From Raillietiella orientalis (Eukaryota): DNA of 64,000 nt. The notes under the pieces were generated by a model that saw nothing but the letters and a program-made list of their open reading frames with translations, was not told the origin of the DNA and did not search any database. The position numbers and the translations under genes are program-made. Shown one piece after another: positions 15,578 to 54,495 of the stretch; position 1 is the first letter of the stretch, and each line of letters begins with the position of its first letter. Location of the stretch: contig JAYWIR010000030.1 in NCBI GenBank assembly GCA_036172245.1, forward strand, positions 806,001 to 870,000, read 5' to 3'.

Positions 15578-15760
15578 TCATTCCAAACGACGAAGAGATT
15601 CCTCCTCTCTTCCCCATGCTGCCTTGGTAATGCGCTTCGTGAGCGCAACCTGTAGATGACTGCGGACATCCTGTACCGGTGGAGATGCTCCGGGGCATTT
15701 CGTTTTCCTATACGCAAGATAGCGGCTACGATTAACGACATCCTCCAGCATCCCCCCCCC
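15578..15760 (-). mobile_element. LINE ORF2 C-terminal remnant
   Basis: RYLAYRKTK...LQVALTKRI resembles L1/Tx1 ORF2 termini; weak. Confidence 0.3.
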
Positions 15761-27799: not shown

Positions 27800-29200
27800 G
27801 GTAGAGGAGGAGAAAGGGAGGACAGCGTGCTGCCTGACCCGATGCGGCGGGATCGCGGCCCAGAGAGGCACGCGGCCTCCTCCCTCGACGCGATGTCGAG
27901 ATTGCGGGCGTGCGCGGGAGATCTCTGGGACGCCCATGGGGCGACGCGCCTCCCACTCCACAGCCAGGACGCGCGCGACCCTTCCTCCCCTGAACATTTC
28001 CCTCAGGAAAAGAGGGGCTGGGTGGGCGCTCCTCGCGTCCTCCGAGACGATCTCGACGTTGCGCGCTTTCCAATCGGCGGTCTGTTGGTGGCGCATGCGC
28101 GTGCGGGACCTCCCTTCCTCGGGAGGGAAGACGCTCCTCCCTCGCCCTCTCCCTTCCCTTCCCCGTCTTTTTCCGGCTTGCAGTTCCGTCACGGCGCGCG
28201 CCAGTAGTCACGGCCAGTGCAGCAACCGTCTCCGCGGTGGCGTGGGCGGGAAGCGTCCGCTGCTGTTTCATAGGGCCGAGAAAAGGCTGCAGGTCGGCGG
28301 AGGGAGCTCTGGAGCTTCCAGCGGAGAGGCCTCCTTCACTCCCACTTCCCACCCACCAGTGGTGCACGGGCGGATGGGCTGCTCGACGACGCTCGAATGG
28401 GGACCGTCCAATCGGGAAGTCCCCTGGCGGCGCGCGAGTGCGCGGTATCTTCTCGGGCCGCCGTGGGCCGTAAAGCGGCGGGAGCAATGGAAAGGGAACG
28501 CTTTCCTCACAGGGAAGTGGTGGGACCTCCCGGAAGGCGCCGTGGAATTCGCTGACTCCTTTCGGGCTTCTCGGGAGGCTTTTCGGGAGACTGCCCAGAG
28601 GTGCCCTCCAGCGCTCGGGAAGGTGGGAGAAGGAAGCTGCCTGCACTGTCTTGCACGCGGGACAGGGACAGCCGCAAGAAGACGAGGGACCGAGGCCGGT
28701 GGGTGGGTTGCGCACTGCGTGGTCGCGCAGGGGGCAGCAGAGGGATGCCTAGGACTGCAGCTTTCGTCCTTCCCTGCCCGTCCTGACTCTCGACTGTCCC
28801 CTCGTAGTCTTCTCTCTTGCCTTTGTCCTGCCGGCGCCCAGGGCGTAGCCGCGCATTGCAAGGACGCCTCCTGGGGCGGCGGCCGCCACCGCTTTTCCCA
28901 CCGGCTGCGTAATCCGACGCCGAAGGTGAAGGCCGGTGGCTGCTGCTTGCTCGGCTCTTTCGGCCTCCCCGGGAGGGGGGGGGGGACCACTGCGGCGGCG
29001 CGGCAGCAGCATTGTCGCCGGCGACGTCGAGTCCGGAGAGGTGGAGGAGCACGAGATGCCGATGCCCTGTACCGCGGTGGAAGGGTGCGTACTGGAAGCC
29101 GCCACGTCATCCGTCCCCCTTCCCCCCTCGCCGCAATTCGGTCGTGCGGATGAGCGTCATCGTGAGCTCCAGGAAGATCCGCGCCTAAGGGGGGGAAGGG
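27800..29200 (+). mobile_element. Possible GC-rich LINE remnant
   Basis: FPQEKRGWVGAPRV resembles the PxExGGLGxP motif; otherwise weak. Confidence 0.25.
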
Positions 29201-30100
29201 GAGGACACGACGGCACACGGCTCGTTTTCCTTCGGTCCAAATGCTTCTTTTCCGTCTCCCACCCGCCAACCTTCTTCCACCCGCGCCTCCACGACCGCTG
29301 CCCGTTCCAGCGACCGCCCTGATCTGGAAAAAGGGAAGGGAAGGACGCCGCGTTCTTCCCGCCTGTTCGTTCTTTTCCTTCCGCTGCGGGCGCCACTTTC
29401 TCGGCCGCGCGGAAGGGAAGAGGGAGGGAGGGAAAGGGCGGTGTCCGGAAGTCCCCTTCTCTCCCACTCCTCCCCCCCTCCCGCGCGGCGTGGTTGGCGC
29501 CTATGTCGTCGTCGCCTCCGCGAGCAACCGATCGCTCTCCGTTTCCTTTTCATCCTTCCTCCGTTTCTCTTCCTCCTTTTTCCCGTTCCCATGGCTGGAA
29601 AGAGGGGGCGGTGGCTTCGCCCGCGTCCTGTCGTTGCGCAACGCGTCGAGGCGCCGCGTGCCTCCCGCGACCTCGAAATTGACGGTTGCGGAGGAAACGC
29701 GGTAACCCGATCTCGCGGGGTCGGAAGAGGAGGAGGGGCGGGCGGGCGGGAGGGAGGGAGGAGGTGCGAGGTCGCGGGAACACATGGCGCGCTTTCGGGT
29801 GCTCCTGGCGTGCTCCCCGCCGGAAATCTCTCCCGGAGGCTCCGCGGCCGCGGTCCGGCGCGCGCGACTCCCCTGATCCCCGGTTCTCCCCTTCCTTGCG
29901 CGCAGAGGTCGCGTCCCGTGCGATGCCCCTCGCACAGCTGTGCACCTCGCACGCGCACGGCTCGCCCGCTCGCGCTGGACCTCTTGGCTCGCCCGCTCGG
30001 CTCGCGGGGGAGAAAAGATGGAGAGAGACGGAGAGAGGAAGGGAAGGAGGAGGAGAGGTCGGGGCTGCTGCAGTCGAGTGGCGTCCGTGGTCGGGGCAGG

Positions 30101-32964
30101 ATGTACGCCTTCGCGCTCCCGCGCAAGTCGGCCTCCTCCTGGAGCCTGTCGCACGTCGTCGACAGCCCCTCCGCGCCCTGCCACTTCCTCCCCAGCCCTT
30201 CGCGCCCTCCCGCCTCCTCCCCCTCGTCCTCGTCGTCGTCGTCCTCGTCGTCGTCGTCGTCGTCGTGCAAGAAGGGTCGACGCCGCCTGCTGTCGTTCGC
30301 CGGCGCCCTCGCTGCGGTGGGGGGAGGGCGCTCCCGCAAGCTGCCTCCGGCGCACGAGGCGTTCGATCCTCCGGAAGACACGTGCTGGGCTCCTCTGTGC
30401 AGAGATTCCCGGCGCAGGGATTCGCTCCCGCTCCCTGGCACGTCGGTGGGGTCACTCCCCGGCCTCTGTCTGCCGGCCGCTGCTCGCGGCAGCAGCATCA
30501 GTAACAGCGCCGCTCAGCCCGCTGCGAGGTTCGCCACCCTTCGGAGGGTGGGGTCCTGGAAGCTGTCTTCCAGCCACAGCGACCTCTCGAGGCTGCAGGC
30601 GGAAAACTCCTCCCCGGAGTCGCTGCAGTCCAAGTGGAGAGCCCTTAAGCAGAGTAAGTCTTTCGAGGTCCGCGCGCGCTGGATGGAGGACGGGGAGGAG
30701 GGGAGAAGGCAACGCCCCCCGCACAGCTCCACAGCCGCCGGCGACTGTGGAGGCGTGCGGTGGCCGCCGCGGGAATCCCCGCTCGTCATGCGCGCTCGTG
30801 TGACTCTCCCGGCGGCCGGATAGCGTCGCCATCGATCGTCCGTCGGGGTAGTGGCGGCACGCCGGCTTGCAGGGCCGGGCGTAGGAGGAGGAGGGAGGGA
30901 TGGTGGAAAGAGGAGGAGGAGGAGGAGGGAAGAGCGCATGTGCACTACCGCGCTGCCGACGCCGACGCCGTGACGTCATCGATCGGGGTACGGAGTGCGC
31001 GCGAGATGGCGTGTTGCGTGTGCGCGCGCCGATGGCGTCGCCGGCGCTTTCCACTCCCCGCTCGAGTGTCCCTGCTGCACCACTGACAGAAAGGAAAAGC
31101 GTCCTCATTTTCTTCTTCTTCACTCGTCGCAGTTGGAGGCGGCGGTGGCAGTGGCGGCTGTTCGTCCGGGAAACGCCCGCAGATCAAGAAGGTGCTGCCT
31201 CCGGTGGTGCCGGAGTCCCATCGCCATTCCATCGGCAGCTGCACCAGCTCCGACTACGAGAGTGTCCGCGGCGGCGGCGGCGGCAACTGCGGCAGTCACC
31301 ATGGATTGGACGGAGTCCCCGCGTCGTCCTTCGGCTGCTTCGGGAAACCAGGTGATCCTTGTTTTCCTTTTCTTCTTCCACCTCCAGGATTGACGCCGGT
31401 GACGAGGAGGAGGAAAGAGAGGAACGGACGTAGCTCGCCGGGCGTCCCGTGAAGTCTCATCCTCCTCCCCCCTTCCTTGTCCCCTGTCGGGAGCCCCCCC
31501 TATATTTTTCACCTCGTGGATTTCGCAGTGTTTTCTACGCGCGTTGCCTCCGCCGCCGCTCTGCCTTTCGCCGCCATCGGGAGGGCGTATCTCGTCTCGC
31601 GCACACCATTGCCGGCCGCGTCACCATCATCCGCCTCCGGGGATGCGCGCACCCTCAAGAAAGGAAAAGAAGAAAGTGTCTCTTTTCTGCCCCACCTCCT
31701 TGTGCTCCCGGGAAGTACCGCTCAGGGAGGAGAAAAGCTTTCCCGGGAGCCAGACGGCAAGGGTGACGCGGGGAAAGAAGAGAGCAGGGGCTTGGTTTCG
31801 TGCATCTGGGTGCGGCGTGTGCCGGGGTCCTCGAGCAAGCGTTCCCATTCATCCCTCCCTCCCGTCGAGCTGTCTGCTGCGGGTCGGGATGACCGGATGT
31901 GGGGTTCCGAGCCGTCCCTTCTCCCCTCACTTTTTACGCGTTCCTGGGGGGAAGGCAACGGGCTCCGAGGAGACGGATGCGATACTCCCGAGCCGTCCCG
32001 CCCTGCGGGGAAGCGACTTTTTTTTTTTTTTTTTATGCCCATGCAGGCATAGCGAAGGCCCATCCCGTCGTCGGACTTCTTGGGTCGTAAGTTCCTTCCC
32101 GAGTGGAGAATGCGCTCCCCCGCAAGAAAAGCACCACAAGGTCCACTCTCTCGTCCCTCGCCCGTGTCCTGTTCCACCTCAGCCGGGTGGTCCACCCGAC
32201 TGCAAATGGCAAAAGGACAAACATATGGGAAAGGGAGTACCTCGCGATCCATGCGTCGGAAATGTGCCGCACGTGTCCGACGGCACGACAGTTTGGCCTT
32301 TCGCTCGCCGGGGGGGGGGGGGGGCAGCCAGCCGCTTCCGGAACATTTCCGGAAGCACACACGCGCATAGGACACAGGGCGAATCTGCGTGATGCTGTGT
32401 GGTGTTCTTTCTGGCATTTCTTCTCTTTGTCCGAGGAGGGGACAGCCTGAAGTTCGCTGCGTGTGCTGCTGCTGCGTCCGCGCATCTGGAACAAAGCAGG
32501 CGAAACGCATACCGAAAACATGGTATGCGTCTAGTCTTGGTGTGACCTCTTAGGAGAATCGTAAGGAAAAATTTCGCTCGTGAGCGTCATCTCGTTTTGC
32601 ACCACGGATACGAATCAGCCAGCAGCCAGAGGAGAGAAGTTTCAGAGACCGCTTGATGACAGCGACCACACGGATTCATACCCACGATATGCCCTCCGAG
32701 AAGGAAAAAAAGCGAGGAGAGGAAAGTGAAGAACGGATCGAGCGATAGCGAAGCATTCGCGGATTCGCATGGGGAAAGAGGAAAAAAAAAAAATGGAATC
32801 AGAGATGCCCAAAGGATGTTTGCCGTCTCCCTGTTGCCATGCCGTCTCGTGCCTGCGAAACGCGGAATGGCAGACAGAAACAAAAGGGTGGAGGACGCAA
32901 TAATGCCGTCGCTTGGAGCAGCATCAGCAGCAGCGGCGGTCTGATGCTGCTGATACTCACATGC

Positions 32965-33003
<39 letters not shown>

Positions 33004-35683
33004 AGAGAGAGAGAGGGAGGGAGGGAGGGAGGGAGTTTTTTTTTTTTTCCTCGCGTAATGAATATTGGTTCGTTTCTCACGATCCTTCAGTGAAAGGGTT
33101 GCAATCCATCCAAGTCGTATCTGCGACCGCAAAAAAAGGGTCTGTGCAGAAGGAAGCGATCTTGAAGGAGAAAAGAGGAAAGGAAGAAAGCCGATGCAAA
33201 TCCCCAAACGAATTTCCGCAGCCGTTCACGTGGGCTGCCCGCCCGCGCGGTTCGGAAGGCGCCCCCGTCGCCGCACAGCTCGGGGGCAGCGTTCTTGCCG
33301 TCGTTGCTCCCGGATGGGGAGTGACCCGCGGAAAACCTTCGGTGGCATCGGATCGCCGGGAGACGTTTGTGCCTGGACCCCCCTCGCCTGTACGCCGGGA
33401 AGCTGCGAGCGAACGTCGAGAGGGGGACGTCATCATCATCATCATCATCATCATCCATCCATCCATCCATCCGGTGTGCCGATGGTGATCGGATCCCAGT
33501 GCTTTCTAAGGAGGAAAAAAAATCCGTAAGAAGACCACTGTTGTCACAAAGAACCGTGCAAAGAACAAGAAAAAAAGAAGAAGAAGAAGAAAAAAAAGGA
33601 AGGCGAAAGCTCCTGATTTGAGAGCAGAAATGGCGAGCAGTGAAAAATGGCGTGCTTATAACTGTTCTTCCTATTTTATGCGGGTCGAAGGTGAAAAGTC
33701 GCCCAGTCTGTGTGTGTGGTTGTGAAGTTCGGTATGTCTTTCGCAAGCACTTTGGAGTAGGCACGGTGCCGTGTGGTCTTTCAACCGCGGGTGATTCATT
33801 GCCTGGATATCTTTGCTGGCAGGCATCGGTCAGCAGACCTCAGAGGCAGCGAGGTGGCGTCCGGACGGATCCGCAATGGAAAGGAGCCGTTCGATCGAGT
33901 GCAGGGAACCTCTTCCCCCCTTCGTGTCGTTCCTTTGTTCGTACAGGTGTTTGCCATTCGGAAGGACTGTGTTCAGCAGTTCAAGACCTCAGAATAGGGA
34001 GACCATCCCGCCGCAGCATTTTAATTAGAAATGCACACCATGCGAAGAAAGGGACTTTAATTATTTTGCTCAGGAGCGCGACGTTGTCGGGCGTGCGTCC
34101 GATCCATACAGAGGAATGCAAAGTGATTCGTAAGTCTTGAAAGGATTCATTGGGCAGAGCTCGGAAACGTGTCGGTGTGTGTGATTTCCCGCACGGTGCG
34201 CGAAAAATGTTCGCGCACCGCCCCCCCCCTCCGTTTCACGTAGCATGGATGCCGTGGCCATCTCCCACGTGAACCTTTCTCCCAGGGAATTTTTTTCTTC
34301 TTATTGTTTTGTAAAGCTTCGCTGCAGTCGTTATTTGTAGAGAGGTTCGACACTTCCCGAATGTGCATTTCAAGTTTTGCATGTGATTTTAGATTTCAAA
34401 GAACCAGAGAGAGTGAGGTACAACTCCTGCACTTTGTCCACGCAGCTGTTCTCTGATCCCGGATTCATGAGTAGATCTCACAACCATCAGTCAAGTTTCT
34501 TGTCCCCAATGGTGAGCAGTTGAAATAATTAGACTCCGGAGACAGGAGATGGCTTACTTAACAGTGGGACTGCCGTGTGCAAACGCATCCTCAAGTGCAT
34601 GCCCATGCTGATGATCAGGGAATCGAACTGTCACAAGTGAATCACTTTTCGTCATGGATTGGTGAACAGCGTCGTTTGCCGCAAAGCCCCTGTTGCGAGA
34701 GTCCTGGGAGTTCTGGTTCCAGTTCTTTAGGATGCCGAAACAGTACTACAAGTTTAGATAGTGGGAGAGGCTCGGCATCCACCAATCCAAATCGTCTGTC
34801 AGGACAGTCATACTCATCAGGATCAAGTCAGGGTTCAGACCGGTCTGAGGATCCAGCAAGCTGTATCTCTTTGGTATCTATTAGCGAGCTGTTGACTCGT
34901 AGGATGCCGGTGAGTGTGGCTCATCTAATAAACCTTCATGAGATATCTATATGGTAGGACCATGAAGTACTCAACCTTTGGCTTACTCACTTACACCTGG
35001 ATTGTTACTATCGCCACTTTTTGAAAGCGGGATATGATATGCCAACCGTGGCTCATATGACTCCTCAGGACTTGGCAGCCATTGGCATTTCTAATCCAAC
35101 ACACAGAAGGATGTTGATGGACGAAATCTCCCGTCTGCATCTCCCTGATGGACTCTCAGACCACATGCCATATGATTTGCGTGACTGGCTGTGTCAGTTG
35201 GGGCTAGAACAATACTATATGCCAATGGTTGGACATGGGTATGTTACCCTAGATGATGTTACCACACTCCAGTGGGAAGACATGGAAGATGTGGGCATTC
35301 TGCTTCTGGGCCACCAGAAAAAGCTTTTAGTGGCCATTCGACGACTGAAGGAAACATTAGCTGGACGCAGAACAATGATTCCACGACCCCAGACAGTGCC
35401 TCTGTTGAAAGTGGAACCAAAGAACCACTGTGATATGCGGACGTTTTTTCCTTCCAAATGTCGTAGTACACTCAAATGGGGAGGGTATGATGAATGTGAC
35501 CGGTCTTCACCCCCACCACCTGCCCCACCCCGTTCCCGTGATGTGACATTGCCCCACCGCCTTCCACGAACTGATGAGCTGCCCTCATTAAATGAAGGAT
35601 CCTCAGATGCTTTGACAGACATTGATAGCATGTTAGATTCCCTGACATCCGAACTAAATGAACTTATTCGTGCTGAGCACTAA
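30101..35683 (+). CDS. ckn: Caskin-family adaptor, paralogue A (short N-terminus, tandem SAM domains, C-terminal tail)
   Basis: Frame-consistent exons 30101-30667, 31183-31351, 34393-34511, 34565-34909, 34958-35683. Motifs: QSKSFE|IKKV..P..PE..RHS, DDQGIELSQ, SPGSSG, SLDSGR, SAM1 AGYDMPTVAHMTPQDLAAIGI, SAM2 WEDMEDVGILLLGHQKKL, tail DIDSMLDSLTSELNELI. The start codon and first exon are least certain. Confidence 0.85.
32966..33034. repeat. Compound (TG)n(GA)n(GGGA)n microsatellite
   Basis: Read directly. Similar tracts at 3711-3731 (CA), 15190-15216 (GA), 40920-40960 (TG), 45716-45769 (CT/GT), plus many homopolymer runs. Confidence 0.95.
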
Positions 35684-35691
35684 TAAACACA

Positions 35692-38600
35692 TCACACGTG
35701 GATTGTACTGGGTGGATCTCTCAGACGGATAGTCCCCGTGCGTTCACTGGCAAAGGGTAGTGATTCAACAGAGTCCCAGTCACTGTGGAAGGACTGCCTC
35801 CGAGAAATGTGGGGTACACTGCTTGAGAAAGAACTTTGTAACTGGTTCGTTTTGCTTATGGGGTGCTGGAATGTCTGCAACTCATTAACTGAAATTCTGT
35901 AAGGTTTGTGCACTTGTAAGACCAGATTGGTAGGGCTGGGGGATGCTGAGATCTTTGCTGTTGGATAAAACTTTTGTCCATTAAGTAGTGAACGGATGCG
36001 CTTCCCAGCTAACATCAGCCTTTTTTGATGACCAAGAATCTGCACTCCCATCTCCTCGAGATCTTCCCAAGCCAGCTGCGCGACATCATTCACTGTACAA
36101 CATCCATGTTCTTGGAGGCTGCTGTGGTAGCCCCTTAGTCCTAGTATTTCTAGCATTTCTTGCAAGCTTTCCTGGTGGAAGCAGTTGAAAAGACAGGGGA
36201 AAAAAAAGCAGTAGATACCGGTATATGAAGAAACATTCCATCAGGAAGCTGCAGTCGACTAATCTCTGCCATTAATTTTTTCCTGTGGACAGGATCGGAA
36301 ATACCAATAGCAGCCAGATCTTGTGGGGTCATAGCTCCCACTAGCAGCATATCGTAGCCAGCATTAAGAAAGTGGCCCTCGTACTGAGAGAAGCCTACAT
36401 CCATTAACCACATTGCCAGCACTTCGCTTGTCTACAAGTGCCATGAGACACGAACGTGGCGGCTACCTCTGCTTACCGGCATGCCACGTGCCAACAGCTC
36501 CACAATGGACACTTGACTAATGCATCCAGGAGCCGTCACACACGAGTCAGCACTGAATTCCGAAAGTACTGACATCCTGCATTGCCACTGTTAATTGAGT
36601 AGGAGCTAACCCTCTCACCTTTTACATAGTGGATCTGATAACGAGCAGGATGCTCTTCCACTGTCCATACTTCCTGTACTGATATTGGATGCAGTATCTT
36701 CACTGTAAGATTTCTGCTAGCAGTGAGCCTAAAGTTTGCATGCTTGGAAGCCTACCTGACTGGGACATTTCAACTCATTTCTCAGGGGTGAAAGTTTCAG
36801 CGAGGCAACAGATGGCGCAGTCTGCCATTCCAGATCAGATAAAGATGCAGCCAACTTTAGTTTGTTTCTCCCCTGGCCTTCCAAACAGGAATGCTGCCTT
36901 TTATTTATGTCCCTGAAGCATCCAAGAGTTTTTGTGCCATCAAAGTGGTGAGGCACTCTCGGGGGCGGTATGTTCTTGGATTGTGAGACATCTTTTGAGG
37001 GAAAATTGCAAGGAAAGCCACACAGTTACAGCTTACCCTCACGGTTATCACATGTGATTGTATCGGTAGCAAACACAAGTGATCCCGGAAAACGGCCGCT
37101 TCGGAATGCATTTCCCATTCCAGGAATAACTCCACTCCAGATGTCATCTGAGCCCTTTTCTAATACCTGGTAAAGAAATATGCCCCCCTCTCTCTCTCTT
37201 CCGAGCTTTGCTGAGTCCTTTTAATCACCCAAATGGTTTCTCCTTTTGCAAACAGCAAGGCCTCGGGATCTTCGGTATTGAAGTGATTTTGAATGGCAAC
37301 AGCCCTGGTGGTGGATATTGCCTCTGGAATCAGACCATGTAAGCAACAACGGTTTTCCCTGACATTTCCATCCTACGTGAACGCGCATCCACTCTGAAAC
37401 TCCCATGCTCGGATGGGAAAGCAAAAAAGTGCACGCGTCTTCGCCCACAGATGTGCAGGGTGATGGCGCGGAAACCGAGCCGTTCCTGACCGCAGTCAGC
37501 AGCAGCAGCAGTCCTAAGGGGGTTCACGAGCTGTGTGTTCTCCCATTTTTCATTTTTTTTTCTGTCTTCAAAGGAAAACAGGAAGAAGAAGAATAAGAAA
37601 GAAATCGTTGAGAAGCTTTTCGAAAGGTTTCGGACTCTGAGAGAGAGAGCTTTGTTGGGCTTGGTTCTTCCAAGGCAGCAGTCACATTGCTTTTGGGATG
37701 CCCCTCCCGCCTCCATTTGTGATTGGGGGTCTGCGGTTCTTCTTCTTCTTCTTCTTCTCTGCCGCCCTTTCCAGCCGTTTTTTTTTTGTTGTTGTTGTTT
37801 TTTTGTTGTTGTTTTTTTCGTTTTCTTGAACCCACTTCCGAGTACTCCCATCGGAAAAAACGCGAATCGTTGGGACACTTTGCGATGCCCCATGCCGTTT
37901 TGCAGTGCGAAGCTTTGCTTGTCATCGTGCACTCCTGAGAAAGCGTGGAACCCGAAATTGGATGCGTGATCCCGAGTTGAGCACGCAGGAAGTGCGACGG
38001 GCGGGCTCCCGGTCGTTCCCCATCTGGTCGGCCATGGGGCGTTCGCTCCTTTTGGAAAATGTTCCTGCAGATCTTCGACCTGTGAAACACTGGGTCAACG
38101 GTTCTTCTTCAAGCATGCTTCGGATTCCCTGCTCTCTTTCCTCTCTCTCTCTCTCTCTCTCTCTCCCCCCCCGCCTGCATGCCCGGCGCGTAGGATGCTC
38201 TGAAGGTACGATGGGGCACCGGATTGGCGTGTCGAGCGACTTGTGGGGGACGACGGGAACCGTTCCCGTGCCGCGGGCAGAAGCGCTCCTGAATCAGATC
38301 GCGACCCTCTTGTGCCGGATGCGAATCTGTGCGGCGTCCGAATCTGGAAGGACGGCTCCATGGCAGCAGGATGACCAGAAGGCGCACGGACCGCGCTTCC
38401 TGCATCCGGACGCGCGCCGTGCGGATGCAGGAAACGCAGGAGAGAGAATCCCTGGGATGGCGAAAGTCACCAGATGAAAACGTTCGGTTCGCTCACGCTT
38501 CCTCGCGGAAGTACGAATGCGAAGTCTCGCATTTTGTAGCGTTTTCCCACTACCCCGCGTGCGCCATAGAGAAGCCGGAAAATCGCAGACGCCTCCTCCT

Positions 38601-40917
38601 CTTCTTGAAGCGAGAAACCTTGAGACTTGAGGAAGACCAGAAGTGCCACTCGCCCATGCGCTCAAACGGTGGTGGTGGTGGTGGTGGTGCGAGACCTCCG
38701 CTTCGTCTGCAGGTGGCTCGCTTTGCCGTTCTGATTGCGGGATCCTCTTCGACAGATGAGAACTTGAGTTGACGGGAATTACTGAGATCACAGGAGGGAA
38801 GTCGCCAGCAGAGGCGACAGGCAGCAAACCCGAAAAAATATATCCGCGTCGCGCCCTCTTTCCTCGTCCTTTTGCACTCCGAATTCGAAGATACGAAGAC
38901 TCGTGCGGTGCTCGGAGCTTCGATTCAATGCAGCCAACAGACACGTCTCCCTTATGCCCAAGCCGGGATGGTCGATCCTGGCTCGGGAAGCTCGGGAAAC
39001 CCATCACGCAGAGGAATGGGAAAGGAATGGCGGGATTGCAAAAATAACGTTGAAAAACAACAACACATACCGAAGCCTTCCAAAGACGCATTGGGATTCT
39101 CAGAACAGAATATTATTATCATTTATTTATTGGAAATCCTTCCAAACAGCTATCAGTCATCCGATGAGAATTAGTAAATAAAACCGACAAGTTGGCGGCT
39201 GCACAGATTTTTTTCCTTCAGATGCGAGGGAATGTGCAAAAAACATTCATATGGAGATGATCTTCCAAAACCAACCGACGCCCCCCCTCTCCTCCCCCTT
39301 TTGTTTTTGTTTTTTTTGGCAGGGAATGACACGGAGTTCATTTAGGCGCTTCGTTGAACAAATTTATCCTATGGGGGGGGGGGGGGAGGGTAAAGAAGAA
39401 GGAAAAAAAAAAAAAAACGCATTCTTCTGTTTGGATCCTCCCGATCTCGTTGTATGAAACAAACGCAGACGCGTTCAGTTCGTTTCTCTTGGAAAGGTAA
39501 TTTCCAACGCCGAACGTCACAGGCAAAGAAGCTGTTCCCTTCCCCCCCCCCCCCGTTCCCCCGCTCAGCAAGTGCCCACTCCCAGCGGCTACGGATCCAA
39601 ATGCCCACAGGGGATGCCGCTCCTCGTGCGGTTGGTTCCCCAGAGGGACGTACGCATTCGTCGGCCTATCTTGCCGACACGCACGAAAGCTCCCCCGGAC
39701 GGGGAGGGGCCGGGACGAGCGGGAAAAGCTCGGCACGCGGACAGATTCCGTTACTCATCCGGCGTCACAGGGAGCATCCCTGCCGGCCGACCGCGCCGCG
39801 GGTCTTCGGCTGCTTCGCGTTGGCAGCGGAACACCCCGGCGGCAGCTGCGCGAACGTCTTCCTCTTTGGCGAACGGTCCGGCCACTCCCACTCCAGTGCC
39901 AGCGGCGCCTTCCTCCGAGTCTGACAAAGTCGGCAGATAGCTGCCATGCTCTGTACGGTACCAACCATCCACCAAGAACTTTTCGAGGTTGTTTGCTGAG
40001 GTTTTATCGCAGCGCAAATCAGACGCGTTATTTCGTTTCTTTCTGTTTCCTATGCAAAACGCTTATCAGGCGAGATCACGCCCATCTCATGAGAACATTT
40101 ATTTTGCGGTTGATTAAGCAATGCAAAGCTGGCTATTCAAGTCAAGTCATGCAAAAAAAGAAAAAGGCCGAAATTCCTTCATTCCGTGTAACACCATGCA
40201 ATTTGTACATCCCATGTAGACAAAGAAAAGAGAGAGAGAGAGAGAGGGGGGGGGGAACCCTATGTTGTTGAAGTCTCGCAAACAAAGATGAGAGAAGTAC
40301 CGAAAACAGCTGGTAACACTGACAGTGGGCATTAGAAGGTAAATGAAATCGATCTTCAAAAACAATAAATTAAGTATGGAAGAGAAGCCATTTCCGATGG
40401 CAGGCACGCTGCCGATGTAATGGAATTAATGAAGGACCCCGTGGAACACATGTGCGCCTCCACGCCATCGACGTCTGAACGCGAATTACTTACGACGACG
40501 AGATGAAACGCGCAGGGAACTTTGCTGCAAGAACGACAGAAAAGCTACGGAACAGCAGCACTCTTCGCAGAAACGAAGACTGAATCAAAATGAGGTCCCT
40601 TCGAGAATCTTTTTGCTCCCGCCGATTCCGGGCGGGGGAGGGGGGCACGACAACCCCCTCGCATGCTGCTGCACGGAACACGAAATGATGCGGGGAAGGT
40701 GGAGATGGATAAGTACGTCCGACTGATTGACCCGGGCGACGAGGGGAGAGGAAATGAAATGGTGGTGGTGGTGGTGGTGGTGGAAATTCTCCGTGAGCCC
40801 CCACTGCGATAGATCGCTCATCGCGAACGACGACGACGACGACGGCGGCGGCGGCAGCGGCAGCAGCAGCAGCAGCAGCGGGCAAGAGCAACGCAAGAAA
40901 CTTTCTTCCTTTCCTGC

Positions 40918-40963
<46 letters not shown>

Positions 40964-41158
40964 CCCATTAAAGGGGTGGCTCGGGAATTATTCGAACTCC
41001 TCGCCGCCGGCGGCGCGCTTTACGTGGCCCCTGTGCACGGAACAAAGAAATGAGCCTTCTTTTCCCCCTTTACCTTTCATGATGTGTTTGATTCCCATGG
41101 AGACCTTGTACGAACTGGTGTCGCCGTAGTCATCCGGCTTGTGAACGTCGAAGATGCT
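35692..41158 (-). CDS. ckn: Caskin-family adaptor, paralogue B (ankyrin-end exon, SH3, tandem SAM); 5' end not found
   Basis: Frame-consistent exons 41158-41074, 37323-37229, 37166-37037, 36991-36756, 36713-36619, 36576-36477, 36431-36219, 36171-35692. SH3: RAVAIQNHFNTEDPEALLFAKGETIW|VLEKGSDDIWSG...RSGRFPGSLV; SMDSGRAS; SAM1 AGYDMLLVGAMTPQDLAAIGI; SAM2 WEDLEEMGVQILGHQKRL; SVESLPFASERTGTI. Linking the 41 kb exon is an inference. Confidence 0.8.
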
Positions 41159-44100
41159 CTAAGGATGACAGCATTCAAAAAGCACGTGCAGCGGCGGCAC
41201 AAGCGCGTGGGAGGTGGTGAATGTCAGTCAGGCAGCAGCCATTTACTCTCCCGTCGAAAGCAAAGTTGAATCGCGGATGAACTTTGCTTTGGCGTGGCGT
41301 CCTCAGCAAACGCGCCCCGTCACGCCAACACATGAAGACATCACACGGCTGCGACGAAGAAAACGCGATAATCGCCTCGAATGGCCGCCGATCGCCACTC
41401 GGGGAGCTCCGGGAAATGGCGGGCGATTCATTGCCTTAAGGACACGTCACAGGTCGCAATTAGCAGACGTTGACGGACGAGTGGAAAAAGGAAAAGAAAA
41501 AAAAAAAAAAAAAGAGAGAGAGACAACACTTCTTCACTTCTCGGTTTCCCCGGGAGGAGCACCGAGCGCACGCACCGACTCAACACCGGTGGCTGTGCGG
41601 TTCATCTCCGGGCGGACATCGCGGCATGGGGTCGGTCACATGGCAAGGAGAGCGTGGCTCGCGTGGACGGACTGCCGTGAAATTTCGAGCACGCGGGCTG
41701 GAGGAGCTCCCTATTTTCGAATGGGAATGCGTCTTCCGGGAACAACGCAGGGGAGCCCGTTCGGATGCGGGGGAGCGCGCCGTGGCGAGTCCGAGAGTCT
41801 CCTCCGTCTCTGAAGAAATGCAAAACACGACAGGTGCTCGAGGCGGATAAATATGCGGATAAAGGATGCTGTTTGCCGCAAGCTGTTAGCATCCGTCAGA
41901 GGTAATAAGGGAAGCAAAACATCGCTGCTGCCACAAAACAGCGTTTGTGTTCAAAGACATCCCCCCCGGGCCGACCGTAAACACGCGACCCTGACACGAA
42001 CAATGCACGAAAATCCAAAATGGACATCCGAATTGCGGATGCAGCACTTCGACTTGGCTTCTTCGGAGGAGCAAACCTTCTTCTCGGCGTAACCCAGGGA
42101 GCGGCGTCCACTCTCCTCCCGGCGAGCTGCTCGTCGCCTCGGTGAGCTCACCTCACCGTAGGTGTTGGAATCGCCTGCACGGACTGCCTCCTGGAGACCA
42201 CCGAGAGTCTGTCCACCTACGCACGCACGCTCGGGGGGTGCACTTGGGGTGCACTCGTGGCGCTCATAATGATACACCACGTGAAACGGAAAACCGGGCC
42301 GAAGGTACGGAGAAGCACGCGAGGGGACAACGGGGAAACCGCGGCGATGGAGACGAAAAGGAGAGGACGGATGATTAGGAGCGGGCTGATGACGCACCTT
42401 CCCAGGAAACGCGGAAGTTCACCGTGGGGACGGAAACCACGGCTACGCTCGAAGGCGCCGCCGTCCACGGATGGGCTTGGGATGAGCTCGGAAGAGAGCA
42501 AAGACGAGCGAAGTGCCCGTTGGCCAAATTAAAACGTCGTCGTCGTCGGCAGCCGCCCGCTTGCCAAACACGATCGGCCTCCTCGCTAAATAGTACCGTG
42601 GTCACGCCCCTCCGGGCTACTCACACACTCCACTCGGACACGTTTTCGCGACGCGGATCAAGCGCCAGCACGTCACAACACGTCGGGATTCCGTTTCCAA
42701 GTAATTACACATCATCGGATCATAACGAAAGTGATGCTGCCATGCATCATCACCGCACGCAACGTCAAATCGAACGCGATCGCCCATCCCACCGTCAGAT
42801 CCTTGCGGCGACGGTCTCCCTGGAGAAATCAGATAAGGACTCTCCCCCCTTCTCTGGTTTCAGAAAATGCGTGGCGAGGAAGCACGCGTCCGTTTGGGGC
42901 GGCCACTTTATTCGTGTGCCGGAGGAGGAGGAAGGGGGGGGGGGGGGAAGAAAGAAGAGAGAAGCTCGAAACGAACCGTCGGTCATCTGCATGCCGAACG
43001 TACGCCACACACGCGGGGGAGGAAGAGGGGGACCTGACCTCTGGATTCCGGCGGCCGGTCGGAAGAGAACCCGCGCGCGCGCGCTTGCCACGGCTTGGGA
43101 GACGGGGAAAGCCTCTGCACAGCAGGGTGATCTGGGAAAGGAGGGGGAGGGGGGGACCGGGGATTAAAATTCAGGCGGTTTGGGGGGGGGGGAGGAGGCG
43201 GGGGGGACACGCGTGGGTTCTGGGTGCAAGCCGAGGTTAGGCAGAGACTTCCTCGACAGCGAGAAAGGAGCCGTCGGAAGATACGCGGGCTCGAGAGAGA
43301 CGGAGAGAGGAGGAGGAGAGGGGGAAATGCGTGACACACCTCGTGATCCGACTGATTGGAATAATAAAACGCTGCACAGCTGAACGGTGACTGACAATCG
43401 CCGTGGTGGAGCTTTAAAAAGGCCGAGAGTGGAGACGGCTCTGGATACAGAAAAGTGGCCTCAGAGCCAGAAATTGGCCGTGAACGGAAACGGAAACCAT
43501 GCATTCAGGGAGAGAAACCACTTGATATGCCCGTAAAGCGGAGCTCAGGAAGGGGGGAGGAAGTTTTGTGTTGTCGAATTACGTGCGCTAATTTCAGTTT
43601 GCGTTTCCTCCTCCCTCCCCCCCCCCCCCACCTCCTTCTTCCCTGCTGCCACGTTTTTCCACACCACCGCTGCCGCTGCCGCAGCAGCATCCCTGATCCG
43701 AAATTGTGTGCGGGAAATCCTCACCCCGCAACGGAACACAAGAACCGTTCGTTCTCACGGGAAAGAAGGCGGGCCTCCCCGTTTCGGGACTCCCTCGCCG
43801 TGTTGCCACTGCCTCCCCCCCCCCCCCCCCCCCAAGCCAGTGGTTTCGGTTCCAAACGCGCTGACGACGGCGAGATTCGGATTCTGCCACATCGCATTCG
43901 ACCGAGAGCCTGGCGATTCGTCGTGGATTCGATCCGACACGACGACATGCCGGATTTCACGCAACAGCTGGCATCTCCGAAACAGGGATACCTGCAAGAG
44001 ATGAGCGGACCGTCACGAAGCAGGGTGGCCACAACACTTATCGATAAGCAGACTCCACCTCGCGCTGCAGTTGCACTTTGAGTTTCGCAACTCTGCGTAG

Positions 44101-52459: not shown

Positions 52460-54495
52460 TTAAGCATCGATTTCATTATCTGTAATTAGATCGTAATTAA
52501 AGCATCCGTGAGAAATTTTTACCATTGGCATCTTCTTCACTGGACTCCTCCTCTTCAGATTCAAATGTATTATCCGGAATGTCATATAAGCGAATTATGC
52601 TCTTGTTAGGATCCTTCACAATTAAGTACTTGCCATCTTTTTGTTTCATGCAGATATCAATTAGATAACGTAAGATACCCCATGCATTGTCCATGGACAA
52701 ATTAATTTGACTAGCAAACTCATGAGGTTTAAACAGCTGGGTTCCTAATATGACATGCCGACTAGTGTCTTGAATGTGATGACGAGACACATAACCAAAA
52801 CGAAGCTGATCCGAACCAGCCAGTAATGCCTGAACTGTCCATTTAGCTAGTTTACAGGAATTGTTCTTAAGTTCATTGGCCAAAACTGCACCCCTCTGGG
52901 TATCTAGTTTCTGACGCCAATCTATGCCTCCAGAAAAACGGGGATCCCATTCATTCAATGCTTTGATGTTAACAAACAATGTCTCTCCATTAGGTCCTGA
53001 TACAGCTGCATCATGCTCACAGCGGCACACAAGTTCAATACCACCACCCAGTTCCCATTTACGATAACGATATGCAACAGAGGCTACCTCTCCTTCTTCT
53101 TCCTCTTCAACAAAAGGATTTTTCTCCTCAAATGAAAACGTTTCTTCTCCCTGGATCAGCACAACTTTATGCACCTTAAATTTTTTTGAACTCACCATTT
53201 TAAGCACTTGCTGTGAAAAATTATGATTGATGAACAATGCTTCCAAGGCCAAACTACGTGGGGAATTTATGCTAGCACCTTCATCTTGTGGAGGCTCATT
53301 TGAGGTCTCACTGACCGTCAGCAAATCTGTTTCAAAACTTCTGTTATGCATGGCAAGCATCAACATTATCCATACCAAACTCAGAATTATCTCTTTTGTC
53401 AAAAAAGAGTTTCCCACCCACTTTATGCACGACTACATCCCAGGAGTATACAGAACGAGTGCAACACATAAGTGAAGCAAGGATAGCATCTGTACCGAAT
53501 ACGTTGCCCTCACTCTTAGACAACTACAGCCAAATTTATGTTGGAAGTTCTACATAGCCACTTACCTGTCTTATAATTGGATCATCTGTTGTGGCAACTT
53601 TATGAAAGATTCGATCTATACGCTGCAGAGGTTTCTCAGCTTTTGTATTAACCCTGTCATACGCCCGATCATAGTACTCCAAGGTTCCACAACACTTTCT
53701 AAATGCAACAGTAACTGTATTTGCAAAACAAAGAACTTACAAATCCTTGCACTCCTCAATTCCAGGGAGAGACAATTTGCTCAACCTAGGAAAGTCCATT
53801 TCTTCAATAACAATCCATTCTGGTTTCACAGTTACAGATGATTCTCGGATCTTTATGGGAATTTGATTTTTTTGATCATAGCGTTGTCTATTTCCATATT
53901 GCTTTTGCCACTTGCGAACTTGTCGCATTCGGTCTCTGGTTCAAAACATCAGAAACAGAAAAGCAAAATATTTGTACCTGTCCCTAATCTTGGCAGTTTT
54001 GCTCAATGACTGCATAGGTTGTTGTTGACGAAGTTGTTTCAACTTATTTAATTTCTGGCTACGTAAATTTCTTCCTCTTTGATATAAGGGCTTTTGAATT
54101 CTTGTGGTATCAACCAGTTGAAAGGAACTCTCATCCTCATCATGATAATAAGCATACTGGGAATGACCTCCAACAGCAAAGCTTGAAACATATTTATCTG
54201 ATGAAATTAAATTCCGTTAGAGGGCATAAAGACCACGAACCAACTTACTTTGATATTTCCTATCCTGATAAGTTGATCCTGTCCAATCTGAAACCTTTTA
54301 AACTTTGTTAGAAAGCATTGTGTCCATGGGGAGTAATACGTATCTATGTGTTTTTATTATGACACTTACCTTCCCTAATCTATCTCCTTTAGAAAAAGGT
54401 TGATATGGCATATCTTTGAATTGTTCTGGGATATCCTTAGGTCCCCATCCAGTAGGATTATTTTGGATGACTGGAAATACAAAGCGAGCCGCCAT
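52460..54495 (-). CDS. EIF3D: Eukaryotic translation initiation factor 3 subunit D
   Basis: Nine frame-consistent exons: 54495-54370, 54294-54249, 54197-53978, 53935-53741, 53698-53566, 53523-53376, 53326-53196, 53150-52523, 52479-52460. Hallmarks NPTGWGP...[58 protein letters not shown]. The last intron is inferred; if unspliced, the stop is at 52497. Confidence 0.97.

What the first reader, a model, noticed from the sequence alone, without database searches (positions are those of the whole stretch)
30101..41158. Caskin duplicates appear to have divided the ancestral domains between them
Both have the SxDSGR motif and two SAM domains. A has the insect-type short N-terminus (QSKSFEIKKV...RHS), the DDQGI motif, a PPPPAPP motif and the Caskin C-terminal tail, but no clear SH3. 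B has an ankyrin-end exon, an SH3 and the PFAxExxGTI motif, but stops before the tail. Complementary retention is what subfunctionalisation predicts. Tandem Caskin SAMs are known to polymerise, so A/B heteropolymers could reconstitute the full scaffold (inference).
Basis: partly seen in the sequence, partly recalled or inferred. Interest (0 to 1): 0.7.

Follow-up and report, generated by a model that had tools for sequence, protein, structure and literature searches.

The report
Two complementary Caskin scaffold gene copies
An arthropod-like genome carries two old, tail-to-tail copies of the nerve-cell scaffold gene Caskin; both keep the shared core but each keeps different side modules, a tidy though not unprecedented case of duplicates dividing up an ancestor's parts.

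Summary
Gene A (+ strand, last exon 34958-35683) and gene B (- strand, 41158 down to 35692) are both Caskin homologues with a tandem SAM core and an SxDSGR motif. Their stop codons lie 8 bp apart.

- **Modules in A:** the KKVxPPxVP..RHS motif, DDQGI, PPPPAPP and the C-terminal tail. It has no SH3 and no PFAxExxGTI.
- **Modules in B:** the end of the last ankyrin repeat, an SH3 split by a 62-nt intron, and PFAxExxGTI followed by a stop. It has no tail.
- **Missing from both:** the ankyrin array was not found anywhere in the window, and both lack the long proline-rich half.
- **Age and relationship:** the copies group as sisters (bootstrap 98). Synonymous sites between them are saturated while protein sequence is conserved.
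- **Evidence they are real genes:** B reads open across 8 exons with GT..AG introns. Two of A's introns are confirmed by RNA contigs of a close relative, with 21 synonymous against 4 non-synonymous differences.

Single-copy arthropod Caskins already produce short-N-terminus and tail-less isoforms. Partition of modules or isoforms after duplication is therefore the best reading, but it is not proven.

The heteropolymer idea is unsupported, because residues needed for human CASKIN2 oligomerisation are replaced in both copies. B's expression and both 5' ends are unresolved. The scan's notes held no earlier Caskin finding.

The parts
30503..30667 (+).
31032..31065 (+). A: hypothetical first coding exon (ATG, 34 nt, phase 1, 67-nt intron to 31133) that would give a complete 480-aa ORF; inference only
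31133..31351 (+). A: exon with IKKVLPPVVPESHRHS (post-SH3 motif of other Caskins); start at 31133 (pyrimidine tract) or 31183 (reader); donor phase 1 at 31351
34393..34511 (+). A: exon; joined to the next exon in an RNA-run contig of a relative (covered from 34398); 5 of 8 differences synonymous third positions in this frame, also upstream of the internal ATG
34565..34909 (+). A: exon with DDQGI and SLDSGRGS; both flanking introns (53 and 48 nt, GT..AG) confirmed by RNA-run contigs
34958..35683 (+). A: last exon: SAM1, SAM2 (uninterrupted), PPPPAPP, C-terminal tail motif, stop TAA 35681-35683
35682..35687 (+). AATAAA overlapping A's stop codon; 8-nt spacer 35684-35691 to B's stop; an RNA contig runs on to 35695
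35692..36171 (-). B exon 8: SAM2, linker, PFASERTGTI, stop TGA at 35694-35692; no tail
36219..36431 (-). B exon 7: SAM1 (a 47-nt intron separates it from SAM2; A has no intron there)
36477..36576 (-). B exon 6: pre-SAM segment ending ...ELLARGMP; same intron position and phase as A's 34909/34958 junction; 41-nt DNA similarity to A (76%)
36619..36713 (-). B exon 5: SMDSGRAS (SxDSGR motif)
36756..36991 (-). B exon 4: degenerate versions of the KKVxPPxVP (NIPPPRVP) and DQGI (LEGQG) motifs
37037..37166 (-). B exon 3: C-terminal half of the SH3
37229..37323 (-). B exon 2: linker after the ankyrin region and N-terminal half of the SH3
41074..41158 (-). B exon 1 as far as known: end of the last ankyrin repeat (DVHKPDDYGDT...), phase-1 donor GTAAAG, 3750-nt intron to 37323; no ATG
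41247..41333 (-). B: hypothetical first coding exon (ATG, 29 codons, GTAAAT donor, 88-nt intron) that would give a 506-aa ORF; inference only

Best explanation
A and B are two ancient, convergent (tail-to-tail) paralogues of the single Caskin (ckn-type) scaffold gene of an arthropod-like animal. Both are maintained as coding genes.

Each keeps the core: the SxDSGR segment and the tandem SAM domains. The peripheral modules are divided between them.
- A is an ankyrin- and SH3-less form like the Caskins of branchiopod, ostracod and insect. It has the KKVxPPxVP..RHS motif, DDQGI, PPPPAPP and the conserved C-terminal tail.
- B keeps a vestige of the last ankyrin repeat, the SH3 and the PFAxExxGTI motif, and ends before the tail.

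Single-copy arthropod Caskin genes already produce short-N-terminus isoforms and tail-less isoforms. The most likely history (inferred) is therefore an inverted local duplication, followed by partition of isoform-specific or complementary modules between the copies. That is subfunctionalisation at the level of protein modules, with B evolving about 1.6 times faster.

Shown: homology, intact frames, two A introns, selection, and the module map.

Inferred: the order of losses, that the partition is what preserves both copies, and any physical co-assembly of A and B.
For: **Homology**
- A's SAM tandem matches Caskin-1 and Caskin-2 structures at E 9e-42 to 1e-39.
- B's SAM exons match SAM_1 at 5e-14 and 1.4e-9.
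- The spliced models score 269 bits (A) and 278 bits (B) against a 12-homologue Caskin HMM. B's SH3 region scores 57.8 bits, B's PFA motif 9.0 bits and A's tail 12.0 bits.

**Paralogy**
- A and B are 70 of 140 identical in the SAM tandem without a gap.
- They form a clade with UFBoot 98 / SH-aLRT 88 in a 69-row LG+C20 tree, and SH-aLRT 88 in the 151-row quick tree.
- They share the intron position and phase before SAM1.

**Selection**
- B reads open for 477 codons over 8 exons with 7 GT..AG introns.
- Between A and B, pS is 0.83 (saturated) against pN 0.355. Codon-position identities are 0.61, 0.69 and 0.33.
- Against a relative's RNA contigs, A's two 3' exons, 34565-35683, differ at 21 synonymous and 4 non-synonymous sites.

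**Module map**.

**Isoform precedent**
- One Artemia locus gives forms starting just before KKVAPPIVPE (P0181, P0182) and forms ending after the PFA motif without the tail (P0175, P0176).
- The Artemia, Clastoptera and Darwinula Caskins examined (3 of 3) have no Ank or SH3 by Pfam. The Tachypleus one has both.
Against: - The ankyrin array and the long proline-rich half are missing from both copies, so the partition is not a clean division of the whole ancestor.
- Neither 5' end is defined. A's upstream frame has no ATG and B's first known exon has none.
- No whole genome is held, so a third, complete Caskin cannot be excluded.
- With about five modules, complementary loss could also arise without selection for it.
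- Both branches are long (0.48 and 0.77), and each copy alone is unplaced in leave-one-out trees, with supports of 0 to 9. Long-branch attraction cannot be fully excluded, though adjacency argues for local duplication.
- No orthologue of B was found in the protein collections. The age and spread of the pair are therefore unknown.
Confidence: 0.5

Rival explanations
1. Asymmetric birth plus divergence. The inverted duplication copied only part of the gene, from the last ankyrin exon to just past the PFA motif. B therefore lacked the ankyrin array and the tail from the start and then evolved fast towards a new or reduced role. A is simply the ancestral gene, which lost Ank/SH3 and its middle region independently, as pancrustacean Caskins did.
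For: - B's frame ends 8 bp from A's stop, as expected if a duplication breakpoint or later deletion cut it there.
- B's branch is longer, 0.77 against 0.48.
- B's KKV and DQGI motifs are degenerate.
- Ank/SH3-less Caskins exist as sole forms in 3 of 3 pancrustacean proteins checked, so A's losses need no partner to compensate.
Against: - The regions next to the junction are not homologous between the arms (A: tail; B: PFA motif), so a simple palindromic duplication ending at the present junction does not explain the layout.
- B retained exactly the two modules that A lacks, over a time long enough to saturate synonymous sites.
Confidence: 0.27
2. Incomplete gene models. Further exons outside the window, or alternative splicing, supply the 'missing' modules, so there is no real partition.
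For: - Both 5' ends are open.
- Introns of 3.0 and 3.75 kb occur.
- An RNA-run contig covers 30735-30896 inside A's presumed first intron.
- No genome is held.
Against: - The 3' ends are fixed by single exons. A runs uninterrupted from SAM1 to the tail and stop. B runs uninterrupted from SAM2 through the PFA motif to its stop.
- No second tail, PFA, SH3 or any ankyrin match exists among all 2018 six-frame ORFs of the 64-kb window.
- B's upstream space on its strand is bounded by an eIF3d gene at 52500-54216.
Confidence: 0.13
3. B is a decaying or unexpressed relic.
For: No orthologue was found in the protein collections. B's branch is longer than A's.
Against: - There are 477 codons without a stop or frameshift across 8 exons, with all 7 introns GT..AG.
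- Non-synonymous change is held to pN 0.355 while synonymous sites are saturated.
- SH3, SAM and PFA motifs are still recognisable.
Confidence: 0.06
4. Assembly artefact: a false inverted join placed two distant Caskin loci tail to tail.
For: The 8-bp spacing is unusual. No DNA run spanning the junction was examined.
Against: - An RNA contig of a relative runs from A's last exon through the spacer to 35695, past the complement of B's stop codon.
- The two copies are deeply diverged, so this is not a collapsed or mirrored recent repeat.
Confidence: 0.03

Closest known systems
Single-copy arthropod Caskin (Drosophila Ckn; Artemia franciscana locus QYM36_007694; Tachypleus caskin-2-like)
   Same: Same motif order as Tachypleus P0020: SH3, KKVxPPxVP..RHS, DQGI, SxDSGR, SAM1-SAM2, PFAxxxxGTI, tail. 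A resembles the Ank/SH3-less forms of Artemia, Clastoptera and Darwinula. Short-N-terminus and tail-less isoforms exist at the one Artemia locus.
   Different: Here there are two genes instead of one. Each has only about 95-100 residues after SAM2, against several hundred in the others. The modules are split between the genes. PMC4994250 (passages read) states that Drosophila has only one homologue.
Vertebrate CASKIN1 / CASKIN2 paralogues
   Same: Two paralogues with a conserved tandem SAM core that differ in a peripheral module. CASKIN1 has the CASK-interaction motif and CASKIN2 lacks it (PMC4994250; bioRxiv 10.1101/2022.01.16.476467, passages).
   Different: - Both vertebrate proteins keep six ankyrin repeats, SH3, the proline-rich half and the tail.
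- A and B arose independently (they are sisters in the tree).
- Neither A nor B has the [DE]-x-hydrophobic-W-hydrophobic-x-R motif, which 11 of the 191 sequences scanned (189 collected proteins plus the A and B models) carry.
- A and B lack the SAM1 helix-5 glycine and the L589-type hydrophobic residue.
Gene fission by duplication and complementary degeneration (monkey king family, Wang, Yu and Long 2004)
   Same: [quoted passage not shown] I saw this only as described and cited in PMC3258039 (passages).
   Different: In the A/B pair the core (SxDSGR plus both SAMs) is kept by both copies, so this is a partial partition and not a true fission. Some ancestral parts are lost from both.
Subfunctionalisation of splice forms after duplication (Lambert et al. 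2015, PMC4417111)
   Same: An alternatively spliced ancestor whose isoforms become fixed in separate paralogues. I saw the search listing and the start of the abstract only.
   Different: That A and B correspond to ancestral isoforms is inferred from another species' gene models. It has not been shown for this lineage.

Membership tests
Caskin family (CASKIN1/2, Ckn) | Tandem SAM1-SAM2 homologous to Caskin SAM tandem | tested here: met
   A: E 9e-42 to Caskin-1 and 9e-40 to Caskin-2 structures. B: SAM_1 5e-14 and 1.4e-9 on the two exons; 210 bits on the spliced model against the Caskin HMM.
Caskin family (CASKIN1/2, Ckn) | Six N-terminal ankyrin repeats | tested here: not met
   No ankyrin match in 2018 six-frame ORFs or in Pfam scans of 130 and 145 ORFs. 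B has only the end of the last repeat. The feature is not universal: 3 of 3 pancrustacean Caskins checked lack it too.
Caskin family (CASKIN1/2, Ckn) | SH3 domain between ankyrin repeats and SAMs | tested here: inconclusive
   B: met. It scores 57.8 bits over HMM positions 264-373 on the spliced model. Pfam on one half-exon alone is weak (SH3_1 E 0.07). A: not met within the window, but A's 5' end is open.
Caskin family (CASKIN1/2, Ckn) | Long proline-rich C-terminal half | tested here: not met
   A has about 100 and B about 95 residues after SAM2. A keeps only the PPPPAPP stretch that follows SAM2 in bivalve homologues.
Caskin family (CASKIN1/2, Ckn) | Conserved C-terminal ~25-residue tail (Pfam Caskin-tail PF16632) | tested here: inconclusive
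   A: aligns with the tails of 5 of 5 homologues and scores 12.0 bits on the custom HMM, but has no Pfam hit at E<=1. Homologues themselves score below the Pfam cut-off (19-29 bits against 35). B: absent.
CASKIN1-type CASK binder | CID motif [DE]-x-hydrophobic-W-hydrophobic-x-R (bioRxiv 10.1101/2022.01.16.476467) | tested here: not met
   A regular-expression scan found the motif in 11 of the 191 sequences scanned (189 collected proteins plus the A and B models), and in neither A nor B.
Caskin-type SAM oligomer/polymer | SAM1 helix-5 glycine and nearby lysine (CASKIN2 G537, K540) and SAM2 head hydrophobic residue (L589) for contacts between units; SAM2 helix-5 glycine (G607) for SAM1-SAM2 coupling | tested here: not met
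   By ungapped alignment, A has T, R, D and B has V, K, D at G537, K540 and L589. Both keep the G607-equivalent glycine. Whether they still self-assemble cannot be tested with these tools.
Duplication-degeneration module partition (subfunctionalisation) | Both copies descend from one multi-module ancestor by duplication | tested here: met
   Adjacent and convergent; sister clade 98/88; shared intron position.
Duplication-degeneration module partition (subfunctionalisation) | Every ancestral module survives in at least one copy, and losses are complementary | tested here: inconclusive
   Complementary for SH3 and PFA (B only) and for tail, PPPPAPP and intact KKV/DQGI (A only). The ankyrin array and the proline-rich half are absent from both.
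Duplication-degeneration module partition (subfunctionalisation) | Both copies expressed and under purifying selection | tested here: inconclusive
   A: spliced RNA contigs in a relative, 21 synonymous against 4 non-synonymous differences. B: selection is inferred from the intact frame and pN 0.355 against saturated pS. Its expression is not tested.

The most novel reading that the evidence does not exclude
A and B are an obligate two-gene Caskin. The shared SAM tandems co-assemble, so that B's SH3 and PFA motif and A's KKV/DQGI motifs and C-terminal tail act in one scaffold. Their convergent, overlapping 3' ends (stops 8 bp apart, with A's poly(A) signal sitting on its stop codon) couple the expression of the two. 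If so, this would be a natural split of a synaptic scaffold that assigns separable functions to conserved Caskin motifs whose roles are still unknown.
Probability: 0.12. Interest if true: 0.6.

Novelty: new member of a known kind. Interest (0 to 1): 0.35.

Why it matters
Caskin is described as a single gene in Drosophila. Its conserved 25-residue tail is stated to be of unknown function (PMC4994250, passages read), and I found no stated function for the PFAxExxGTI motif in the papers read.

A lineage in which these motifs, and the SH3, have been sorted onto two separately encoded proteins offers a natural dissection of which modules must act in the same molecule. It is also a clean example for the link between alternative isoforms and paralogue partition.

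It does not change what is known about how duplicates evolve.

Tried and rejected
1. **Complex prediction.** A's SAM tandem with B's SAM1 exon gave no verdict: score 0.00, controls not run. This is neither for nor against binding.
2. **RNA runs X1 and X2.** No contig lay on B, 36010-37745. The runs held only 6-7% of the sampled words and were kept as contigs, so this says nothing about B's expression.
3. **Whole genome.** None is held, so a third Caskin could not be sought.
4. **B orthologues.**
   - Longer proteins: 2 hits among 363 candidates, best 36% identity.
   - Near-length proteins: 1 hit among 38 candidates, 55% identity over 42% of the query, a generic Caskin.
   - Metagenome scan: 2 weak loci out of 175 pattern matches, 45% identity over 38 residues, judged irrelevant.
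5. **Representative search with A's last exon.** 808 proteins at E<=0.001. The top hit, P0021, is an internally duplicated model and not a close relative.
6. **Earlier notes.** No Caskin note and no look-alike stretch.
7. **A 21-nt similarity (17 of 21)** between A's confirmed acceptor at 34564/5 and B's intron 5 (pair I2). Rejected as chance: by my estimate about one such match is expected in a 3.1-kb self-comparison, it breaks colinearity with SxDSGR, and the acceptor it would imply puts B out of frame.
8. **An SH3 relic in A's upstream frame.** Considered, but not detectable by the HMM.
9. **The exon that ends B's frame.** Splicing at the first acceptor after exon 5 gives a stop. The acceptor 10 nt further on restores the conserved frame.
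10. **Weng et al. 2011 on Drosophila Ckn** is not held. What I say about Lar and Nck/Dock rests on passages of PMC3549760.
Full report
**What is there.** The window is eukaryotic. Coding exons have about 46-50% G+C and sit among G+C-richer spacers and long introns. Two Caskin-like genes lie tail to tail.
- Gene A is on the + strand. Its last exon, 34958-35683, encodes both SAM domains without interruption (Pfam SAM_1 E 2.6e-29, two stretches). It matches the solved tandem SAM structures of human Caskin-1 (E 9e-42) and Caskin-2 (about 1e-39).
- Gene B is on the - strand. Its SAM1 (36431-36219) and SAM2 (36171 onwards) lie in separate exons (SAM_1 E 5e-14 and 1.4e-9).
- A's stop (TAA, 35681-35683) and B's stop (TGA, read from 35694 to 35692) are 8 bp apart. 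An AATAAA overlaps A's stop.

**Gene models.**
- For B, I placed eight exons by homology and splice signals: 41158-41074, 37323-37229, 37166-37037, 36991-36756, 36713-36619, 36576-36477, 36431-36219 and 36171-35692. Together they give 1434 nt, a multiple of three, with one stop at the end. All seven introns are GT..AG, six of them 42-62 nt and one 3750 nt.
- For A, the junctions 34511/34565 and 34909/34958 are confirmed by contigs of two public runs, which skip 53 and 48 nt with GT..AG ends. One run is a metatranscriptome on record as RNA. The other's RNA label is a guess. The contigs are 95-99% identical to the window, so they come from a close relative and not from this individual.
- Upstream of these, exon 34393-34511 and the exon ending at 31351 are phase-compatible.
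- The exon with IKKVLPPVVPESHRHS is the best window match of the post-SH3 region for 5 of 7 arthropod-type homologues (E 5e-6 to 3e-4). For the other two it is second, at E 0.02.
- Its 5' border is open. Homology continues upstream of IKKV in the genomic reading, which favours the alternative.
- Neither gene has a defined start. I note two purely hypothetical first exons. For A, 31032-31065 would give a 480-residue ORF. For B, 41333-41247 would give a 506-residue ORF.

**Module map.** I aligned A and B with a full-length horseshoe-crab Caskin (P0020) and four other homologues. I also scored all 2018 six-frame ORFs of the window with an HMM built from 12 homologues.
- B holds the end of the last ankyrin repeat and the linker, and an SH3 (57.8 bits on the spliced model).
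- B also holds degenerate copies of the KKVxPPxVP and DQGI motifs, SMDSGRAS, both SAMs, and PFASERTGTI 11 codons before the stop. It has no tail.
- A holds a well-kept KKVxPPxVP..RHS motif, DDQGI, SLDSGRGS, both SAMs, PPPPAPP directly after SAM2 as in bivalve Caskins, and the C-terminal tail. It has no SH3 and no PFA motif.
- Because each 3' part is one uninterrupted exon, A cannot encode the PFA motif there and B cannot encode the tail there. No second copy of either motif exists in the window.
- No ankyrin repeat was found anywhere. The evidence is and two Pfam scans. One search covered 127 of the 163 flanking ORFs listed plus 3 exon ORFs; the 36 left out lie at 44.2-47 kb on the - strand and 27.1-28.2 kb on the + strand. 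One search covered 145 ORFs of 85 residues or more with G+C under 0.60 outside 27-44 kb.
- An eIF3d gene at 52500-54216 on B's strand bounds B's upstream space.

**Are both real genes?**
- Against the relative's RNA contigs, A's two 3' exons, 34565-35683, differ at 25 listed sites: 21 synonymous and 4 non-synonymous.
- In exon 34393-34511, 5 of 8 differences are synonymous third positions. Four of them lie upstream of an internal ATG, which suggests the frame is coding from further upstream. Six further differences, at 30768-30840, lie outside the modelled exons and were not classified.
- Between A and B, over 138 codons of the SAM tandem, pS is 0.83 (saturated; third-position identity 0.33) and pN is 0.355.
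- Together with B's unbroken frame over eight exons, this means both copies were under purifying selection for most of a long history.
- B's expression itself is not tested.

**Relationship.**
- Of 167 collected homologues, 149 cover the SAM tandem.
- In the 151-row quick tree, A and B are sisters with SH-aLRT 88.
- A second tree used 69 rows, LG+C20 and 138 columns. The 67 homologues in it were 38 from the neighbourhood of A and B in the quick tree, the full-tandem members of P0001-P0020, and 15 drawn at random. There A and B are sisters with UFBoot 98 / SH-aLRT 88, end branches 0.48 and 0.77. The bootstrap had not fully settled.
- With one copy removed, the other is unplaced, with supports of 0 to 9. 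Neither has a rival affinity, but long-branch attraction cannot be excluded.
- A is at most 57% and B at most 52% identical to any homologue. No close orthologue of either turned up.

**Context from other arthropods.**
- Other agents' notes call this genome arthropod.
- The nearest Atlas clusters of the eIF3d exon are commonest in Arthropoda.
- A's motifs match the chelicerate protein best.
- By Pfam, the Artemia, Clastoptera and Darwinula Caskins (3 of 3) have two SAMs and the tail but no ankyrin repeats or SH3. Tachypleus has six ankyrin repeats, SH3, SAMs and tail.
- One Artemia locus is annotated with forms beginning just before KKVAPPIVPE, and with forms that end after the PFA motif without the tail. 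The two kinds of difference between A and B thus exist as isoform differences of a single gene elsewhere.

**Mechanism.** The best reading has four steps: an inverted local duplication of a Caskin gene that still had its SH3, fixation of different module or isoform sets in the two copies, loss of most of the disordered C-terminal half in both, and faster change in B. This is a known kind of outcome.
- Duplication followed by differential loss is described for the monkey king family. I saw this only as cited in PMC3258039.
- Subfunctionalisation of splice forms is described in PMC4417111. I saw the listing and the start of the abstract only.
- The main rival is that B was incomplete from birth and A's losses are independent.

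**The heteropolymer inference.** In human CASKIN2, G537D, K540E and L589E were designed to break contacts between SAM-tandem units, and G607 couples SAM1 to SAM2 (PMC4994250, section 7, read in full).
- By gap-free alignment, A has T, R, D and B has V, K, D at the first three positions. Both keep the G607-type glycine.
- Assembly of the vertebrate kind therefore cannot be assumed for A, B or A with B. Some other mode is not excluded.
- Even if they co-assemble, the ankyrin array and the proline-rich region, which binds Nck and Abi2 in Caskin1 (PMC3549760 passages), would still be missing.
- Neither copy has the CASK-binding motif of Caskin1.

**Verdict.** This is a real, carefully observed pair of ancient Caskin paralogues with complementary peripheral modules. 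It is a new example of a known evolutionary pattern. Its functional reading is open until transcripts, relatives and binding are examined.

Noticed in passing
window 35681-35695: The two coding regions end 8 bp apart on opposite strands. AATAAA (35682-35687) overlaps A's stop, and an RNA contig of a relative runs to 35695, past the complement of B's stop. The 3' untranslated ends must therefore overlap the partner's last coding exon in antisense.
   Followed up: partly
window 30735-30896: An RNA-run contig (about 94% alike, 2 gaps) lies unspliced inside what both A models treat as the first intron. It could be a retained intron, an alternative 5' exon or DNA in the library. The alignment was cut at a masked GGA repeat from 30899.
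   Followed up: no
window 34300-37400 and 28000-32000: Composition is the reverse of the usual. Most exons of both genes have 46-53% G+C (range 40-66%; the two upstream A exons are the G+C-rich ones). The upstream region and A's first intron reach 66-69%. Introns come in two size classes: 42-67 nt, and 3.0-3.75 kb.
   Followed up: partly
window 52500-54216 (- strand): An eIF3 subunit D gene (Pfam eIF-3_zeta E 1.8e-111 on one 311-residue ORF, with a second piece at 53944-54216) sits in an A+T-rich island of 34-41% G+C, unlike its surroundings.
   Followed up: partly
homologues P0179, P0173, P0022 against P0020: The Caskins checked of a branchiopod, an insect and an ostracod have no ankyrin repeats or SH3 by Pfam, while the horseshoe-crab protein has both. 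The N-terminal half seems to have been lost, or to be optional, in pancrustaceans.
   Followed up: partly
window 36172-36218 against 35150-35170: B has a 47-nt intron in the linker between SAM1 and SAM2, where A's exon is continuous. This is an intron gain in B or a loss in A since the duplication.
   Followed up: no
window about 40905-40960 and 32950-33000: Long CA/TG microsatellites lie in B's large first intron and in A's 3-kb intron.
   Followed up: no
window 15736-16785 (+ strand): A 350-residue ORF has a weak, sub-threshold Major Facilitator match (E 3e-4, 20 bits against a cut-off of 33). It lies in a stretch (16-26 kb) with strong negative AT skew. It is unclear whether a gene lies there.
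   Followed up: no
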